Source: a bacterium (GTDB lineage Bacteria; Sysuimicrobiota; Sysuimicrobiia; Sysuimicrobiales; Humicultoraceae). Taken from it: a stretch of DNA of 18,251 nt. Of the stretch, positions 5,676-14,600 are shown piece by piece. The position numbers were made by a program. The stretch is from the NCBI GenBank assembly GCA_041497675.1, contig JBGQGY010000077.1, positions 1-18,251 of the forward strand, read 5' to 3'. Positions within the stretch are counted from its first letter, which is position 1. Every line of letters begins with the position of its first letter.

Positions 5676-8600
5676 TCGCGCGCGTCTTGGGGCCGAACGC
5701 TGCCCGCAGTTCCTCGGGCGCAAACGGCATATCCGGCCGGCTGAGGTCGAGCCGCACGTAGCGGAGTGTGGCGCCGGACAACAGCGCGTCGGGACCGTAG
5801 TTCTCGTAGAAGGGCTCGAAGACCACAACTTCGTCGCCGGGGTCGAGGATGGCCAGGAGCGTGGCCATCATCGCTTCGGTCGCGCCGCAGGTGACGGTGA
5901 TGTGCCGCTCCGGATCGACCTCGATGCCATTGCACCACGCCACCTTGTCGGCGATCGCCTTGCGCAGCCGCGGTGATCCCCACGTGATCGCGTACTGGTT
6001 GTACCCGCCGCGCAATGCCGCCGATGCGGCCTCGATCAGCTCGGCGGGAGGATCGAAGTCGGGAAATCCTTGAGCCAGGTTGATGCCGTTGTGCAGGTTG
6101 GTGAGCCGGGTCATCTCACGGATGACCGACTCGGTAAAGTACCCGACGCGGGCCGCAGTCTGTCGTTTCACGGGGTCCCTCCGGAACGGATGTCGGCCTA
6201 GGTCCGAACGACCCGGGCCACGCTGAACACCTGCGGAACTTTCTCGAGCTTCCTCATCACGGCGTGGAGCTGCCCCACGCTGCGGATGTCCAGCACAATG
6301 TTGGTGACGGCGACTTTGTCCTTCCGGACCCTTGAGTTCGCCGAAAGGATGTTGGTCTTGGTCTCGGCAATCGCGGCGGTGATGTCACTAAGCAGTCCCA
6401 CCCGGTCGAAGGCCTCGACCTCCACCTCAACCTGGAAGATCCCCTCCTGCGTCGTCTCCCACTGCACCTCCAACAACCGCTCGGGATGCTCGCGCAGAAA
6501 GGCGATGTTCGGGCAATCGCTGCGGTGGATCGTGACCCCGCGGCCACGCGTGATATACCCGACGATCCGATCGCCGGGCAGGGGCGTACAGCACCGCGCG
6601 AAGTGCATCAGCACGTTGTCCACGCCGCGCACCCGGACGCCCTGCGGGACCCCGGGCGCCGCGGGCGGGACGGCCGGAACAGCGGGGGCCGCTTCCGATG
6701 GCTGCGCCGCTTCCTCACCCCGCAGCGCCTGCGCCACCTGCAACAGCGAGAGGTCGCCGTTGCCCACCGCGGCCAACAGCTCCTCGTCTGAAGGCAGACC
6801 GAACTGCCCCGCCGCCTCGTTGAGCCGCTCGGGCTTCATGCCCGCCGTCACGCTGCCACTGCGGCGCAGCTCGCGCTCGAGCATGTCCCGTCCGCGGACG
6901 ACGTTCTCCTGATGTCGTTCCTTCTTGAACCACTGCCGGATCTTCGCCTTGGCGTTCGTCGTCGCGACAAAACCGAGCCAGTCGCGGCTGGGCCCCGCGT
7001 TGCTCTTGCTGGTGACGATCTCCACGATGTCACCCGTGTGCAACCGATGTGAGAGCGGGACCAACCTGCCGTTCACCTTGGCGCCGGTGGTTCGATGACC
7101 AACATCGGTATGGATGCGGTAGGCAAAGTCCAACGGGGTGGCGTCGGCCGGCAGATCGATCACATCGCCCTTCGGCGTGAACACAAAGACCTCGTTCTGA
7201 AACAGGTCCAGCCGCACCGACTGGACGAAATCACGGGCATCTGCCATCTCTTGCTGCCAATCCATCAGCTGCCGAAGCCATGCCAGCTTGCGATCGACTT
7301 CCCGCTCCTGCGCCGCACCCCTCTTGTAGCGCCAGTGGGCCGCGATGCCGTATTCGGCCTCTTGGTGCATATCGTGCGTACGGATCTGGATCTCCAGCGG
7401 CTCGCCTTCATAGATGACCGCAGTGTGGAGCGATTGGTAGCCGCTGGTCTTGGGGTTGGCGACGTAGTCGTCGAATTCGCCCGGGATCGGCCGCCAGACC
7501 GCGTGCACGACGCCGAGCGCCGCGTAGCAATCCTTCACATCGTCGAGGAGCACCCGCACACCCAGGCGATCGTACACACGGGCGATCGGCTGCCCCGCGT
7601 ACTTTGGACGCTGGAGTTTTCGCCAAATGCTGTAGATGTGTTTGGGACGCCCCGTGATATGGCGGGGGTCGACCTTAATCTCCGCTCGAACCAACTCACG
7701 GTGCAGCACGGCGCACACCCGGTCGATCATGGTCTGGCGCGCGTCTTCAGCCTGGGTCAGCTCTCCCGTAATCTGGTCGTAGGTCTCGGGCTGCAACTCT
7801 CGAAACGCGAGGTCTTCGAGCTCATTCTGGATGCTGCCGATACCGAGGCGTTCGGCCAGCGGCGCGTAGATGTCGAGGGTTTCCTGAGCCGTGCGCTTCC
7901 GCTTCCACTCGGGGAGCGGTGCAAGCGTGCGCATGTTGTGCAGCCGGTCTGCCAGCTTGATCAGGACGATGCGGATGTCGTTGGCCATTGCGAGGAACAT
8001 CTTACGCAGGTTCTCGGCCTGCCGTTCCTCCCGGCTTTGCCACTCGATCTTGCCCAACTTCGTGACGCCGTCGACCAGCGTGGCGATCTCGGCGCCGAAA
8101 CGCTCCTTCAGTTCGGCGGCTTCGATTCCCGTATCTTCGAGCACGTCGTGCAGCAGACCCGCGGCGACCGTCGTGGGGTCAAGATGCAGGCCGCCGAGGA
8201 TCGTTGCGACCGCCACCGCGTGGGTGATGTAGGGCTCGCCGGAGACGCGCGTCTGCCCCTCGTGGGCCCTGGCGGCGGCCAGGTACGCCTCGCGTACAAC
8301 GTCGAGATCGGCCTTGGGAAAATGCGTACGCAGCGTGGCGACCAGGGTCTGCACGTCGGGAGGCAGATCCTGAAAACTGCCCTGTTGTCGCCGTAGGTCC
8401 AACCACTTCACCGGCTGTCACCGCCCCGCAGGTCCAGGCGCCTCGCGGGCGCACCTATACCCAGGGTCGTCCTGCGTATCTTCGGGGCCCTGAGGAGATG
8501 CCCTGCTCTGACTATGCCCGCGCCAGGTCGCCCAGGATCGCCCCCGCCGGTCCCTGCGCCCAGACGCGCAGGTCGCCCAGGGCGGCGCGCTCGCGCTCCC

Positions 8601-11600: not shown

Positions 11601-14600
11601 CCGCAGTGGCCGTCACGCCGCAATCGACGGCGACGACCAGACCCGCCCCGCGCTCTGCCAGACGCGCGACGGCGCCTTCGCTCAACCCATACCCGTCGGC
11701 GCGGCGGTCGGGGATGTAGGCGTCGACCCGCGCGCCGTAGCGGGTGAGCGTCCTAACGAGGATCGCCGTGGCCGTCACGCCGTCCGCGTCGTAGTCACCG
11801 TACACGGTGATCGGGGTGTGCCCGCGGATGGCCGACACCAGGCGATCGACGGCGCGATCCATGTCGATCAGCCGGAGTGGGTCGCTGAGCTGTTCAAACC
11901 GCGGCGAGAGGAACGCACGCGCGGCGGCGGGATCGCCCAGGTGCCGATTGACGAGCACCCTCGCCGCAAGCAACGAGAGCCCCACGTCCTCGGCCAGACG
12001 GCGGGATGCGTCTTCGTGGGGCGGCGCCACGCGCCAACGGCTCATCGGACCCGCGCCGGGGTCTACTGCTGGCTGGTGTGGTCCGCGGAACGGTCTGCGG
12101 GCGCCGGACGCCCTTCGAGCTCGCGCAGGCGGGTCTGGAGCTCGCGGAGGCGGGCGCGCATCTGTTGTTGCCCAACCGTGCTGCTGATCAGTACGAGGAG
12201 ACCGCCAACGATGCCGGCGCCGACCACCGCCAGGGCCAGACTGATCTGAAGGTGCCACGCCAGGAACCGCACCGTCACGAGGTCGGGGTTCGACAGAGAA
12301 AAGACCGTGACGGCGGCAAACAAGATGAGCGCAAAGACGGCGAAGATCGACATCGACGCTACCTGCGGCGGGAGCGCCGTCCTCGCGGGCCCTGCCCGGC
12401 GGTGGTCCGCGCCGAAGCCTCCGGTGTGACCGGCTCCAGCGCCGGCTCTCGAGACGGCAGCGCGGCCGGGGATGTGTCCGCCTCAACCGGCCGCATCCGG
12501 CCCGCCCGCCGGTCGCCCCAATGCGTCCAGTCAACGATCAACGCGGTCGCGATAAACGTCGAGGAATACGTCCCCGTCAAGATCCCCACCATCAGCCCGA
12601 ATGAGAAGTCCCGGATCGTCGCGCCGCCAAAGAAATAGACGGCGGCAATGGCCAGGATCGCCGTCAGCGACGTGTTCACGGATCGCACGAGGGCTTCGAG
12701 CAGGCTGCGGTTGACCAGCCGGTCGAAAGTCTCCCGAGTCCGCAGCACCAGATTTTCGCGAATCCGGTCGAACACGACGATCGTATCGTGCATCGAGTAC
12801 CCGAGCACGGTGAGCAGCACGGCGACAAACGAGCTGTTGACCTCCTTGCGCGTCATCGCGAAGACGCCGACGACCACCAACAGATCGTGTATGAGCGCAA
12901 TATCGGCGCTGAGCGCATAGCGGATCGACTTGAATCGATAGGAGATGTAGACGACCTGGAGCGCCAGACCGATGATGATGCTGGTAATCGCGAGACTGCG
13001 TAGCTCCTGACCGACCTTTGGCCCGACCTGGTCCTCACGCAGAACGGTCACCGCACCAAACCGATCCTTCAACGCCGCGAGCAACTGTGCTTTGGCCTGC
13101 GCGGTGAGCGGGCGGGTCCGGATGAACGTCTCCTGGGGTGCCTTCTCCGCCTTCTGGATGACGCTCTGGCCGGTCGCAAACCGATCGACGACCTCACGGA
13201 CCTGACCGGAATCGAACGGCCGCTCCAGCCTCAGGTGGAGGAAGTTGCCTCCGGTGAAATCCACGCCCCAGTTCAACGCCCCCTGGCCGTGCATGACGTT
13301 CAGGATCAAGACGATGAGGCCGGGGATGGTGACGAGCAGCGAGAGCGCGTACCCCCACTTGCGGAGCCCCATGACGTCCCAGAGCCGCGCCGTCATCAGG
13401 CCGTCCTCCCGGCCATGCGGATCAACCGTGGGCCCAGACTCGTCACGGCGACGCTGTCGACGAATAAGCGCGTCACCACGATCGCGGTGTACATGCTGAC
13501 GAACACGCCGATGGCGAGCGTCACGGCGAATCCACGGATGGGACCCGTGCCGAGGAAGAACAGAATGGCTGCGGCGATCAACGTCGTCACGTTCGAGTCG
13601 ATGATGGCGGACATCGCTCTGTTCCACCCTGTGCTGATGGCGGAACGCAGGGTCTTGCCCGCGCGCAGCTCTTCTTTGATCTTCTCAAAGATGATGATGT
13701 TGGCGTCGACGGCCATCCCCACCGAGAGGACGATACCCGCGATGCCGGGCAACGTCAGCGTGGCGCCCAGGAGTGTCAGCAACGCCACCACGACAACCAG
13801 GTAGAGAGCGAGGGCGATATCGGCCAGCAACCCCGGCAGTCCGTAGTACAACACCATGAAGACGGCCACCATCGTAAAGGCGATCCACGACGCGTGCAGG
13901 CTGGCGTCGATCGCGTCGCGGCCCAGTTCGGGGCCGACGGTGCGATTCTCGATCACCTCGACCGGGATGGGCAGCGCGCCGCCGCGGAGCAGCACGGCCA
14001 GATTTCGCGCCTCTTCGATGTCGCGGAACCCTCCGCTGATCACACCCGTCCCGCCCGGAATCTGCGAGCGAATGACCGGCGAAGAAATGACTTCGTTGTC
14101 CAACACGATCGTCAGGTGGCCGCCGACGTTCTTGCCGGTGAAGTCCTCAAATGTCTTGGCCGCCTTGCTCTTGAACTTGAACTGGACGATGGGTTCACCC
14201 GCGCTGGTCGCCGACTGATCGAACGCGGCCTGCGCGGTCTCGAGATCGGCTCCGGTGAGAATCACTTTCTTGGCCAGCGGGATTGTGCGGGCCCCCTGCG
14301 GTTTGCACCCGGCTCCGGGCTCGGCGGTCGCCGCCGGGATGATCACCGTTTTGCCGTCCGGGGTCCAACAGGCTCCGTGTGGCAACGCCTGCGGACCCGT
14401 ATCGACGAACTCCAACAACGCCGTCTTTCCCAGGAGGGCAATCGCCTTCTCCGGATCGTGCAAACCGGGCAGCTCGACGATAATGCGGTTGGTGCCCTGT
14501 CGCTGGATCGAGGGCTCCACGACGCCCAACTGATCGATCCGGCGTTCAATGACCCTCTTGGCGTCGTCGACCGCCTGGGGCGTGGCCTTGACCGTTGCCG

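What a model noticed while it worked through the whole genome (the two positions that open the first line are those of the whole stretch)
8512..12045. RecJ fused to a HIRAN domain and a RecQ-like helicase core without a Walker A lysine
The only RecJ of the genome (g02538, 1177 aa) is twice the usual size: after the DHH-DHHA1-OB nuclease (1-570) come a HIRAN 3'-end-binding domain (611-687) and a 480-aa module that no Pfam model sees but that folds as a two-lobed SF2 helicase core closest to RecQ/WRN/BLM plus a C-terminal winged helix. In this module the P-loop reads GPGRG (no Lys-Thr/Ser) in all relatives, so it probably binds DNA without hydrolysing ATP. No separate recQ gene is found, so the RecQ-RecJ end-resection pair of the RecF pathway appears here as one polypeptide with an added 3'-end reader.
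Evidence so far: Pfam rows for DHH, DHHA1, RecJ_OB, HIRAN at 79-687; residues 700-1177: 0 Pfam families at E<=1; AlphaFold model of 700-1177 from 21 sequences, pLDDT 88.7, pTM 0.89; VIA-align Z 25.4 to WRN helicase 8pfp (349 aligned), 23.2 BLM, 22.8 D. radiodurans RecQ 4q48, 19.8 E. coli RecQ 1oyy; 39 of 39 database proteins matching the C-terminal module have the same DHH+OB+HIRAN architecture at 890-1220 aa, the four most distant carry Pfam Helicase_C; GPGRG invariant in 11 of 11 aligned; no gene with RecQ/RQC/HRDC families in the genome. HIRAN occurs in at least 64 of 93 genomes of the order against 6.6% of bacteria (relatives.tsv, call 136). Search 'RecJ'+'HIRAN': 27 papers, the 8 listed (titles, abstrac [...]
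(Added by a program. Inside this text positions count along the whole contig: contig position 1 is position 1 of the stretch shown here. "Call 12" and the like, gene names such as g00115 and contig names such as C1 are that model's own, and its searches are not shown. The text may have been shortened before it was handed on; [...] marks where a part breaks off. The agent that wrote the report below was given it as the finding of a first reader that could run no searches.)

Follow-up and report, generated by a model that had tools for sequence, protein, structure and literature searches.

The report
RecJ nuclease carrying a dead helicase
This bacterium's only RecJ DNA-repair nuclease is fused to a DNA-end-binding HIRAN domain and to a RecQ-like helicase that has lost every catalytic motif yet is still kept by selection, and it turns out to be the inactivated branch of a widespread, undescribed family of RecJ-helicase fusion proteins.

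Summary
Window 8512-12045 (-) encodes a 1177-aa protein with four parts: an intact RecJ core, a HIRAN domain, two RecA-like lobes and a C-terminal winged helix. It is the genome's only recJ and only HIRAN, and no recQ passes the family cut-off.

Three points change the reading.
1. The C-terminal module is not an orphan. Profile comparison links it end to end (probability 100%, E 2e-58) to HIRAN-helicases with intact motifs, whose nearest named family is RecQ.
2. RecJ-HIRAN-helicase fusions with all ATPase motifs are common. They make up 52 of 64 long representative fusions and occur in cultured Bacillota such as Thermincola and Acetohalobium, labelled only "RecJ". My searches found no paper describing them.
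3. The window's whole lineage carries a dead version. The module is found in 88 of 94 genomes, forms one clade and has lost every helicase motif, DNA-contact motifs included. It is still under purifying selection (dN/dS 0.17-0.40).

"GPGRG invariant" is wrong (27 of 43). Eremiobacterota show the reverse loss: an active HIRAN-helicase sits at the same secDF locus and they have no RecJ.

Most likely the module is a non-catalytic scaffold that, with HIRAN, positions RecJ. It is a new variant of a known kind, of moderate to high interest.

The parts
8512..12045 (-). Whole gene: recJ::HIRAN::dead RecQ-like module, 1177 aa plus stop
   Evidence: ORF and translation. The start agrees with the N-termini of homologues in alignments A1 and A2. 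Contigs from three other sediment metagenome runs span the domain junctions: X4 covers 8300-11202, X6 covers 8300-11058 and X8 covers 9155-10923.
10339..11973 (-). RecJ 5'-3' ssDNA exonuclease core (residues 25-569): DHH at nt 11434-11811, DHHA1 at 10711-10974, RecJ_OB at 10342-10662
   Evidence: Pfam. TIGR00644 485 bits, cut-off 397. PDB RecJ 8y30 E 7.7e-84, 5f54 E 1.1e-71, 2zxo E 3.9e-60. Catalytic D84, D86, D88, D141, D164-H165-H166, D240 and G421-G422-H423 are invariant in 73 of 73 rows of A2.
10216..10338 (-). Linker (residues 570-610), including the helix '..LDRLFARADDYL..'
   Evidence: This stretch also lies at the N-terminus of stand-alone HIRAN-helicases. The profile built from stand-alone proteins matches the fusions starting right after the OB domain.
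9985..10215 (-). HIRAN domain (residues 611-687)
   Evidence: Pfam 43.7 bits, cut-off 24.7. It aligns to the HLTF HIRAN structures 2mzn, 5bnh and 4xzf at E 1e-5. G617, R623, D647, A650, G662, G691 and G698 are invariant in 73 of 73 rows. It is the most conserved part of the protein in both the dead and the active clade.
9331..9828 (-). Relic RecA-like lobe 1 (residues 740-905). Motif I relic GPGRGLL at nt 9733-9753, motif II relic IAVLDPVG at nt 9442-9465, aromatic-rich loop deleted
   Evidence: Alignments with active relatives. Model with strand-helix alternation. It is the least conserved sub-domain: 4.8% of columns are >=85% identical, and dN/dS is 0.22-0.50.
8905..9330 (-). Relic RecA-like lobe 2 (residues 906-1047). 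Conserved 'RxNLRxxDRRG' and 'AYYHxGLPxxLRR'; motif VI relic EALAVAGLGG at nt 8932-8961
   Evidence: R915, D922, R924 and R982 are conserved in both the dead and the active clade. dN/dS is 0.12-0.48.
8515..8904 (-). C-terminal winged-helix-like domain (residues 1048-1177)
   Evidence: The profile of 22 C-terminal domains hits ArsR-type winged-helix regulators: 8qkf E 5.9e-4 and 3f6v E 9.5e-3. The model shows a helix-helix-strand-strand-helix order at high pLDDT. It has the highest share of conserved columns in the module, 10.8%, and clade-specific conserved Arg at 1066, 1074, 1077, 1137, 1145 and 1153.
12359..14784 (-). secD-secF, upstream neighbours on the same strand
   Evidence: Pfam. The same secD-secF-[gene]-relA order is seen at active fusions in Thermincola and Coriobacteriia loci.
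6198..8411 (-). relA/spoT, downstream neighbour on the same strand
   Evidence: Pfam HD_4, RelA_SpoT, TGS and ACT; synteny.

Best explanation
The gene encodes a housekeeping RecJ, the 5'-3' single-strand DNA exonuclease of recombinational repair. Its nuclease is intact. It drags behind it a complete but catalytically dead HIRAN + RecQ-like helicase + winged-helix unit.

Inferred history: the ancestor was a three-part enzyme, still common in Bacillota and Coriobacteriia. In that enzyme a 3'-5' RecQ-like motor unwinds DNA, RecJ digests the freed 5' strand, and HIRAN holds a 3'-OH end.

Shown here: at the base of the window's lineage all helicase motifs were lost in one event, while the HIRAN domain stayed highly conserved. 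The two lobes, and especially the C-terminal winged helix, stayed under purifying selection.

Inferred mechanism: the dead module no longer moves on or unwinds DNA. It serves as a rigid non-catalytic platform. Together with HIRAN, which reads the 3' end, it docks RecJ on ss/ds junctions such as gaps, resected ends and stalled forks. Any unwinding is left to RecJ with SSB, or to a helicase acting in trans; a PcrA/UvrD and a UvrD-nuclease are encoded elsewhere in the genome.
For: Identity of the parts.

Homology of residues 700-1177 to active helicases: hhalign of 19 dead modules against 7 active HIRAN-helicases gives probability 100%, E 2e-58 over 480 columns. The dead-module profile hits RECQ4 5lst at 5.5e-19, RecQ 4tmu at 8.2e-19 and 1oyw at 7.3e-15, ahead of Hel308 and DEAD-box proteins at about 1e-11. 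Active relatives are nearest to RecQ by NCBIfam and PDB. The fold matches.

Loss of catalysis: 43 of 43 dead rows lack GK[ST], DExH and QxxGRxGR. 65 columns that are >=90% conserved in 36 active relatives are not conserved in 19 dead modules; these cover motifs 0, I, Ia, Ib, II, III, IV, V and VI, and the aromatic-rich loop is deleted. All 18 ORFs correctly extracted from the 7 families of the lineage are dead.

Single origin: the dead clade is monophyletic with SH-aLRT 100 and a stem of 1.01 substitutions per site.

Still selected: the module is present in 88 of 94 genomes and 52 of 54 high-quality ones. dN/dS in six same-genus pairs is 0.17-0.40 for the module against 0.15-0.27 for the RecJ core. 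By sub-domain it is 0.22-0.50 for lobe 1, 0.12-0.48 for lobe 2 and 0.17-0.41 for the winged helix.

Relaxed but not free: the ratio of module identity to RecJ-core identity is 0.64-0.85 in the dead clade against 1.05-1.11 in the active clade, and HIRAN is the most conserved part in both.

Ancestral fused gene at a housekeeping locus: secD-secF-gene-relA is shared with active fusions.

Context: recF, recO and recR are present. There is no recQ. No addA or recB passes its cut-off. A PcrA/UvrD of 717 aa and a UvrD-PD-(D/E)XK protein of 1036 aa next to recA are present.

Literature (passages read): RecJ alone digests 5' overhangs but needs a 3'-5' helicase for blunt or 3'-tailed ends, and UvrD may substitute (PMC4846377).
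Against: No experiment exists. Loss of ATPase is read from motifs only. The Walker B Asp is kept in 41 of 43 dead rows and a glycine-rich loop in most, so nucleotide binding without hydrolysis is not excluded.

The motifs that contact DNA in helicases are also lost, so DNA binding by the lobes is not shown. The net charge of the lobes is only mildly positive, +3.0 and +2.3, and the winged helix is slightly negative at -2.3.

I obtained no model of the full-length protein, so how the module sits relative to the RecJ hole and the HIRAN pocket is unknown.

In one genus (G081-G083) HIRAN itself evolves fast, with dN/dS 0.5-0.74.
Confidence: 0.6

Rival explanations
1. The dead module is kept mainly as a protein-recruitment hub, for example for SSB, RecFOR/RecA or a trans-acting helicase, and not as a DNA-binding platform.
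For: All DNA-contact helicase motifs are degenerate. The best-conserved parts are lobe 2 and the winged helix. In D. radiodurans the extra C-terminal domain of RecJ binds HerA, and that interaction stimulates the nuclease (abstract of PMC4663267). From recall, not tested here: the E. coli RecQ winged helix binds the SSB C-terminal tail.
Against: No partner has been identified. The neighbouring genes are secDF and relA, not repair genes. The conserved arginines on the winged helix fit DNA binding at least as well.
Confidence: 0.2
2. The module is a decaying remnant with no function of its own, kept only because deleting it would harm folding or expression of RecJ-HIRAN.
For: It evolves faster than the RecJ core. 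Lobe 1 is poorly conserved. Shorter or more eroded versions exist in Bacillota: P0139 at 894 aa, and P0156, the 960-aa Desulfofundulus RecJ with no helicase Pfam hit. The Eremiobacterota case shows that halves of the fusion can be lost cleanly.
Against: Its full length is retained without stops in nearly all ORFs across 7 families. dN/dS is 0.17-0.40 in 6 of 6 pairs. There are 21 columns conserved only in the dead clade. The model is confident and compact, pLDDT 87.7.
Confidence: 0.1
3. The module still hydrolyses ATP, or at least binds a nucleotide as a switch, using non-canonical residues such as the Arg of GPGRG and the retained Walker B Asp.
For: A glycine-rich loop with Arg is present in most members, and Asp at the Walker B position in 41 of 43.
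Against: Walker A Lys and Ser/Thr, the Walker B Glu, the Q motif, motif III and both motif VI arginines are absent in 43 of 43 rows. The loop itself varies between families (SPRSGGE, PEAGSRS). Lobe 1 is the least constrained part.
Confidence: 0.06
4. The gene belongs to an anti-phage defence system, since active relatives resemble DpdF and PsyrT helicases.
For: Active relatives hit the PADLOC models DpdF (237 bits) and PsyrT (175-212 bits).
Against: Those models are themselves RecQ-like, and the window protein hits only a HIRAN-type model at 31 bits. The gene is the genome's sole recJ, sits in the conserved secDF-recJ-relA housekeeping position, and is present in 88 of 94 genomes of the lineage.
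Confidence: 0.02

Closest known systems
Database 'RecJ' proteins of about 1200 aa in Bacillota and Coriobacteriia (for example Thermincola ferriacetica, Acetohalobium arabaticum, Orenia marismortui, Selenihalanaerobacter shriftii, Phosphitispora)
   Same: Same order of domains, DHH-DHHA1-OB-linker-HIRAN-two lobes-C-terminal domain. Same secDF-gene-relA locus.
   Different: They keep GTGRGKS, DExH and QxxGRxGRDG and all other helicase motifs, and there the helicase part is as conserved as RecJ. They are uncharacterised: I found no paper on them.
E. coli / D. radiodurans RecQ plus RecJ (RecF-pathway end resection)
   Same: A RecJ nuclease combined with a RecQ-like 3'-5' helicase core. recF, recO and recR are present in this genome. 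The functional logic is described in PMC4846377 (passages).
   Different: Here they form one polypeptide. The helicase is dead, has no Zn-binding, RQC or HRDC domains and scores below the recQ_fam cut-off, and a HIRAN domain is added.
HLTF / Rad5 (HIRAN plus SF2 motor)
   Same: A HIRAN domain sits N-terminal to an SF2 ATPase core. The HIRAN sequence aligns to HLTF structures. In HLTF, Y72 and Y93 stack a single-stranded dinucleotide (passage of PMC4666394).
   Different: The motor is RecQ-like, not SNF2, and there is no RING. The HLTF Y93 position is Arg here. The motor is dead in this lineage.
RecC of RecBCD and AddB of AddAB (inactivated helicase folds inside resection machines). This comparison is from recall; no call tested it.
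   Same: A helicase fold that lost its ATPase motifs is retained as a structural part of a helicase-nuclease resection enzyme.
   Different: Those are SF1 folds, act beside an active motor subunit and recognise Chi. Here the fold is SF2 RecQ-like, no active motor lies in the same protein, and no sequence signal is known.
WRN (RecQ helicase fused to an exonuclease)
   Same: A RecQ-family core and an exonuclease lie in one chain. WRN is the best structural match of the module: 8pfp Z 26.5.
   Different: The WRN nuclease is of the DnaQ type with 3'-5' polarity (from recall) and lies N-terminal to an active helicase.
Stand-alone HIRAN-helicases of Eremiobacterota/Vulcanimicrobiota MAGs (P0041, P0042, P0084)
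   Same: Same linker helix, HIRAN, lobes and C-terminal domain, aligned end to end. Same position right after secD-secF.
   Different: They have no RecJ part and an active motif set. 0 of 5 of their genomes has any recJ match, while 5 of 5 have true RecQ.
D. radiodurans RecJ with an extra C-terminal domain
   Same: A RecJ with a non-catalytic C-terminal addition needed for full function (abstract of PMC4663267).
   Different: That addition is a small unrelated domain that binds HerA. No sequence link to the module was seen.

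Membership tests
RecJ (TIGR00644, bacterial single-stranded-DNA-specific exonuclease) | Whole-protein score over the curated cut-off | tested here: met
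   485.1 bits against 396.9; 488 bits in the genome scan.
RecJ (TIGR00644, bacterial single-stranded-DNA-specific exonuclease) | DHH-family catalytic motifs (DxDxD, D, DHH, GGH) and the OB domain | tested here: met
   GDYDADG, DCG, DHH and GGH are present and invariant in 73 of 73 rows. RecJ_OB scores 93 bits. The core aligns end to end to the solved RecJ 8y30.
RecJ (TIGR00644, bacterial single-stranded-DNA-specific exonuclease) | 5'-3' ssDNA exonuclease activity | not testable with these tools
   Needs a biochemical assay.
HIRAN (PF08797) | Score over the gathering threshold | tested here: met
   43.7 bits against 24.7; 47.8 bits.
HIRAN (PF08797) | Conserved pocket residues matching the HLTF 3'-end pocket | tested here: inconclusive
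   'RDPRNPRDPHAI' aligns to HLTF 'RDPNNPYDKNAI'. D647 is invariant and F620 nearly invariant. The HLTF Y93 position is Arg here. The role of HLTF D94 is recalled, not read in any call.
RecQ family (TIGR00614 recQ_fam / TIGR01389 recQ) | Score over the curated cut-off | tested here: not met
   The window protein gives no recQ row at E<=1. Its locus is not among the genome's recQ_fam matches. Active relatives score 184-190 bits against the 219.8 cut-off.
RecQ family (TIGR00614 recQ_fam / TIGR01389 recQ) | Helicase motifs 0, I, II, III, V and VI and the aromatic-rich loop | tested here: not met
   All are degenerate or deleted.
RecQ family (TIGR00614 recQ_fam / TIGR01389 recQ) | RecQ-specific Zn-binding, RQC and HRDC domains | tested here: not met
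   No PF16124, PF09382 or PF00570 in the window protein or in its active relatives. A true RecQ, P0188, shows all three in the same scan.
SF2 helicase fold (two RecA-like lobes), RecQ-like branch | Homology by profile to SF2 helicases, with RecQ nearest | tested here: met
   hhalign probability 100%, E 2e-58 to active HIRAN-helicases. PDB profile hits to RECQ4 and RecQ at 5.5e-19 to 7.3e-15 rank ahead of other SF2 proteins.
SF2 helicase fold (two RecA-like lobes), RecQ-like branch | Predicted fold matches solved helicase cores | tested here: met
   pLDDT 87.7. Z is 20-26.5 to WRN, RecQ, BLM and RECQ4, but also 20-24.7 to DEAD-box proteins, so the fold alone does not choose the branch.
Winged helix (C-terminal domain) | Sequence or fold match to wHTH domains | tested here: inconclusive
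   Profile hits to ArsR wHTH at 5.9e-4 and 9.5e-3. Pfam gives only weak hints in relatives (E 0.02-0.17) and none for the window. The domain was not modelled and searched on its own.

The most novel reading that the evidence does not exclude
RecJ-HIRAN-RecQ-like fusions are a self-contained machine for processing gaps and stalled forks: the 3'-end reader, the 3'-5' motor and the 5'-3' nuclease act on the two nascent strands. Evolution has then taken this machine apart in opposite ways. In the window's lineage the motor became a fossil that works like RecC or AddB. It acts as a passive channel or sensor for the 3' strand or the duplex, using the winged helix and lobe 2, and so gates or targets RecJ, perhaps in response to a DNA structure or sequence signal. 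In Eremiobacterota the nuclease was discarded and RecJ was lost from the cell altogether.
Probability: 0.15. Interest if true: 0.8.

Novelty: new variant of a known kind. Interest (0 to 1): 0.62.

Why it matters
RecQ and RecJ are the textbook helicase-nuclease pair of the RecF pathway, yet no stable complex between them is established. The D. radiodurans study found no direct interaction (PMC4846377, passage read).

Natural fusions of RecJ to a RecQ-like motor and a 3'-end-binding HIRAN domain argue, Rosetta-stone fashion, that the three activities act on one substrate. Because some occur in cultured Bacillota, they offer single-chain material for biochemistry and cryo-EM.

The window's lineage adds a natural separation-of-function allele. 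The motor is dead in a whole clade of 94 species representatives that also lacks RecQ, yet the fossil is kept under selection. That makes the question of what a helicase body contributes to a nuclease beyond unwinding directly testable. The mirror-image loss in Eremiobacterota, with the helicase kept and no RecJ at all, gives the complementary case.

It also warns annotators that 'RecJ' labels hide three different architectures.

Tried and rejected
- Full-length structure: structure prediction did not accept alignment A2. Only the module was modelled.
- Complex prediction for the RecJ core with the module: tool not available.
- Expression: no RNA holder is listed. One run guessed to be RNA gave five short contigs at 95-99% likeness, which I do not count as evidence.
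- Link between the module's C-terminal domain and Pfam PF10141, the C-terminal domain of Firmicutes RecJ. There are only sub-threshold hits of 18-23 bits (cut-off 26.4) in 4 of the 57 proteins scanned. A search with P0179 residues 600-1095 found 6 proteins and no RecJ of about 780 aa. The C-terminal profile did not hit the solved 757-aa RecJ 8y30. Left as a lead.
- Rfam over the window: 0 matches.
- Promoter-like sites in 8000-12700: 0. One terminator-like site inside secF, no more than expected in shuffles.
- Defence-system reading: rejected.
- Two of the 20 fetched relatives (L022, L024) gave a wrong-strand longest ORF and were dropped from the motif count. In one search the ORF pick for L075 was likewise in the wrong frame.
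- My first split into dead and active rows misfiled six active proteins with ATGRGKS. It was redone.
- Placement of the dead clade among the active fusions is unresolved: SH-aLRT 82-90, quick search, biased composition.
- Literature, full-text library only: 'RecJ'+'HIRAN' as whole words gives 1 paper, a FAN1 review that is not about this. The 27 word-start hits are mostly surnames. 'HIRAN domain'+'bacteria'+'RecQ' gives 13 papers, none on this by title and abstract. 'RecJ'+'RecQ'+'fused'+'domain architecture' gives 6, none. 'RecJ'+'pseudohelicase' gives 0. 'RecJ'+'RecQ-like'+'fusion' gives 14, none; the RqlH paper was checked by passages. Subscription journals are not covered.

Full report
WHAT IS THERE

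The minus-strand ORF from the ATG at 12045 to the stop at 8512 gives 1177 aa. Pfam sees DHH (79-204), DHHA1 (358-445), RecJ_OB (462-568) and HIRAN (611-687), and nothing on 700-1177 at E<=1. NCBIfam recJ scores 485 bits against a cut-off of 397. The core aligns end to end to solved RecJ structures: 8y30 E 7.7e-84, 5f54 and 2zxo. All DHH-family catalytic residues are invariant in a 73-row alignment.

The gene lies between secD-secF upstream and relA/spoT downstream on the same strand, with dtd and hisS further on.

In the genome (3.97 Mb, 272 contigs, 98.6% complete) it is the only recJ match and the only HIRAN. No recQ_fam match reaches the cut-off: best 58.5 bits against 219.8.

Contigs of three other sediment-metagenome runs bridge both domain junctions, so the fusion is not an assembly chimera. 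The same architecture recurs in relatives.

THE C-TERMINAL MODULE

A search with residues 700-1177 found 41 proteins. They comprise the window's own protein, 38 fusions with the same RecJ-HIRAN-module architecture (one of them truncated), and two proteins of 654 and 658 aa made of HIRAN, DEAD and Helicase_C. Those two carry GTGRGKS, DEAH, TATA and QxxGRAGRDG and align with the window protein from the linker helix to the C-terminus.

A profile of 19 dead modules matches a profile of 7 such active proteins with probability 100%, E 2e-58, over 480 columns. Against PDB sequences, the dead-module profile hits RECQ4 (5.5e-19) and bacterial RecQ (8.2e-19, 7.3e-15) ahead of Hel308, DEAD-box proteins and Mfd. 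The active relatives are nearest to RecQ by NCBIfam (recQ 199-214 bits; recQ_fam 184-190 bits, below the 219.8 cut-off) and by PDB (4tmu 2.7e-42). They lack the RecQ Zn, RQC and HRDC domains.

My AlphaFold model of 700-1177 has pLDDT 87.7 and pTM 0.89. DEAD-box cores score nearly as well (CshA Z 24.7), so the RecQ-like assignment rests on sequence, not on fold.

The last 130 residues give profile hits to ArsR-type winged-helix proteins at 5.9e-4 and 9.5e-3.

THE MODULE IS DEAD, AND MORE THOROUGHLY THAN REPORTED

In a 73-row alignment, 43 rows lack GK[ST] at motif I. All 43 also lack DExH and QxxGRxGR. The other 30 rows have all three. GPGRG itself occurs in 27 of the 43, so it is not invariant.

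I compared 36 active relatives with 19 dead modules drawn from all seven families of the lineage. 65 columns that are >=90% conserved in the active set are not conserved in the dead set. They cover motifs 0, I, Ia, Ib, II, III, IV, V and VI, and the aromatic-rich loop is deleted. 15 columns are conserved in both sets. 21 are conserved only in the dead set, including the lobe-2 element AYxHxGLP and six arginines of the winged helix.

A WIDE FAMILY WITH AN ACTIVE MOTOR

An exhaustive search of cluster representatives with the module gave 149 hits. Of these, 64 are >=1000 aa with an N-terminal DHH motif. 52 of the 64 have all three ATPase motifs, 11 have none and 1 is mixed. Pfam confirms DHH-DHHA1-RecJ_OB-(HIRAN)-DEAD-Helicase_C, and some members lack HIRAN.

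A search with the HIRAN-helicase part of one active fusion returned 2444 proteins at E<=1e-20. The 120 listed have this architecture (one of them a truncated 788-aa protein without the DHH and DHHA1 rows). Their source names are 'RecJ' in Thermincola ferriacetica, Acetohalobium arabaticum, Orenia marismortui, Selenihalanaerobacter shriftii, Sporohalobacter salinus, Phosphitispora and many Bacillota MAGs.

At loci of Thermincola, Coriobacteriia and Eggerthellaceae the fused gene sits in the same secD-secF-gene-relA order as in the window.

I found no paper describing such fusions. The searches are listed under Tried and rejected, and the library lacks most subscription journals.

THE WINDOW'S LINEAGE

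The collection's phylum-level group holds 94 species representatives in one order and seven families. The relatives that carry a name are labelled Armatimonadota by NCBI.

- The module is found in 88 of 94 genomes (52 of 54 high-quality ones), nearly always in an ORF of 1100-1350 aa.
- HIRAN is over its cut-off in 89 of 94.
- recQ_fam is over its cut-off in 3 of 94.
- These counts include two unpublished genomes, G017 and G024. Without them they are 86, 87 and 3 of 92.

All 18 correctly extracted ORFs from the seven families are dead; two mis-picked ORFs were dropped. In a tree of 49 helicase regions the 12 dead rows form one clade (SH-aLRT 100) on a stem of 1.01 substitutions per site. Its position among the active fusions is unresolved.

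SELECTION

In six same-genus pairs dN/dS is 0.15-0.27 for the RecJ core and 0.17-0.40 for the module. By sub-domain it is 0.22-0.50 for lobe 1, 0.12-0.48 for lobe 2 and 0.17-0.41 for the winged helix.

The ratio of module identity to RecJ identity is 0.64-0.85 in the dead clade against 1.05-1.11 in the active clade. HIRAN is the most conserved piece in both. Columns that are >=85% identical make up 4.8% of lobe 1, 9.9% of lobe 2 and 10.8% of the winged helix.

The fossil is therefore relaxed but clearly retained, and retention is strongest away from the former ATP site.

THE MIRROR IMAGE

The stand-alone active HIRAN-helicases come mostly from MAGs titled Eremiobacterota or Vulcanimicrobiota. 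In 64 of the 64 such loci that have upstream flank, the gene lies directly after secD-secF. None of the 71 such loci shows a RecJ core. 0 of 5 of their genomes has any recJ match, while 5 of 5 have true RecQ as well.

This fits an ancestral three-part gene at the secDF locus that lost its nuclease half in one phylum and its motor in another. Among five genomes with active fusions, two also have a true RecQ. The fused helicase is thus a RecQ-like paralogue, not RecQ itself.

HOW IT PROBABLY WORKS

Shown: intact nuclease motifs, a conserved HIRAN, a dead but selected helicase body, and this genomic context. recF, recO and recR are present. No addA or recB passes its cut-off. A PcrA/UvrD and a UvrD-PD-(D/E)XK protein next to recA are present.

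From the literature (passages of PMC4846377): RecJ alone digests 5' tails, but blunt or 3'-tailed ends need a 3'-5' helicase, and UvrD may serve.

From PMC4666394 (passage): the HLTF HIRAN holds a single-stranded dinucleotide between Y72 and Y93. The window's HIRAN aligns to it with Phe at the Y72 position, Arg at the Y93 position and an invariant Asp next to it.

Inferred: in the active ancestors the motor peels the 5' strand into RecJ while HIRAN anchors a 3' end. In this lineage the body of the motor survives as a non-catalytic platform, mainly lobe 2 and the winged helix. With HIRAN it targets or steadies RecJ on junctions, and unwinding is supplied in trans or by RecJ with SSB.

Because the helicase DNA-contact motifs are gone too, a role as a protein-docking surface is a serious rival. 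A pure relic, or a residual nucleotide switch, is less likely.

VERDICT

It is a new variant of a known kind, of moderate to high interest.

Noticed in passing
L034-L103 and L110 (e.g. L034:1345-6031): In MAGs mostly titled Eremiobacterota or Vulcanimicrobiota, an active stand-alone HIRAN-helicase of about 650-700 aa lies directly after secD-secF, where recJ normally sits. Five of their genomes have no recJ match at all but do have true RecQ.
   Followed up: partly
G000 contig C24, locus L115:311-8501: The window's genome encodes cinA, recA, a 1036-aa UvrD-helicase fused to a PD-(D/E)XK nuclease, and RNase Y in a row. This single-chain helicase-nuclease next to recA scores below the addA and recB cut-offs.
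   Followed up: partly
P0153, P0171, P0179, P0181 (post-helicase C-terminal domain): Sub-threshold Pfam hits (18-23 bits, cut-off 26.4) to PF10141 ssDNA-exonuc_C, the C-terminal domain of Firmicutes-type RecJ. They hint that this domain could be a further-reduced relic of the helicase module. Two follow-up searches did not confirm it.
   Followed up: partly
P0156 (Desulfofundulus kuznetsovii RecJ, 960 aa), P0139 (894 aa), P0153, P0173, P0179: Other RecJ proteins, in Bacillota, carry eroded or shortened helicase remnants. Inactivation of the fused motor therefore seems to have happened more than once.
   Followed up: partly
G081-G083 (loci L011-L013): In one genus of the lineage the fusion is shorter (1109-1139 aa). 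Its HIRAN scores weakly (25.9-47.7 bits) and evolves fast (dN/dS 0.5-0.74), so HIRAN may be decaying there.
   Followed up: no
window 12046-12358: A 313-nt gap separates the secF stop from the recJ ATG. An in-frame upstream extension is open up to 12534. No Rfam match and no promoter-like site were found there.
   Followed up: partly
G069, G066, G039 (loci L030-L032): The only three genomes of the lineage with a RecQ over the cut-off carry it in ORFs of 699, 1800 and 1776 aa. The two long ones suggest unusual multidomain RecQ proteins.
   Followed up: no
window 1601-2746 (+), 14756-15907 (+), 15934-17819: The ORFs holding the NTP_transferase and DUF72 domains have N-terminal stretches of about 100-150 aa with no Pfam match, so their true starts may lie further in. 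Two long overlapping ORFs at 15934-16872 (-) and 16428-17819 (+) have no Pfam match.
   Followed up: no
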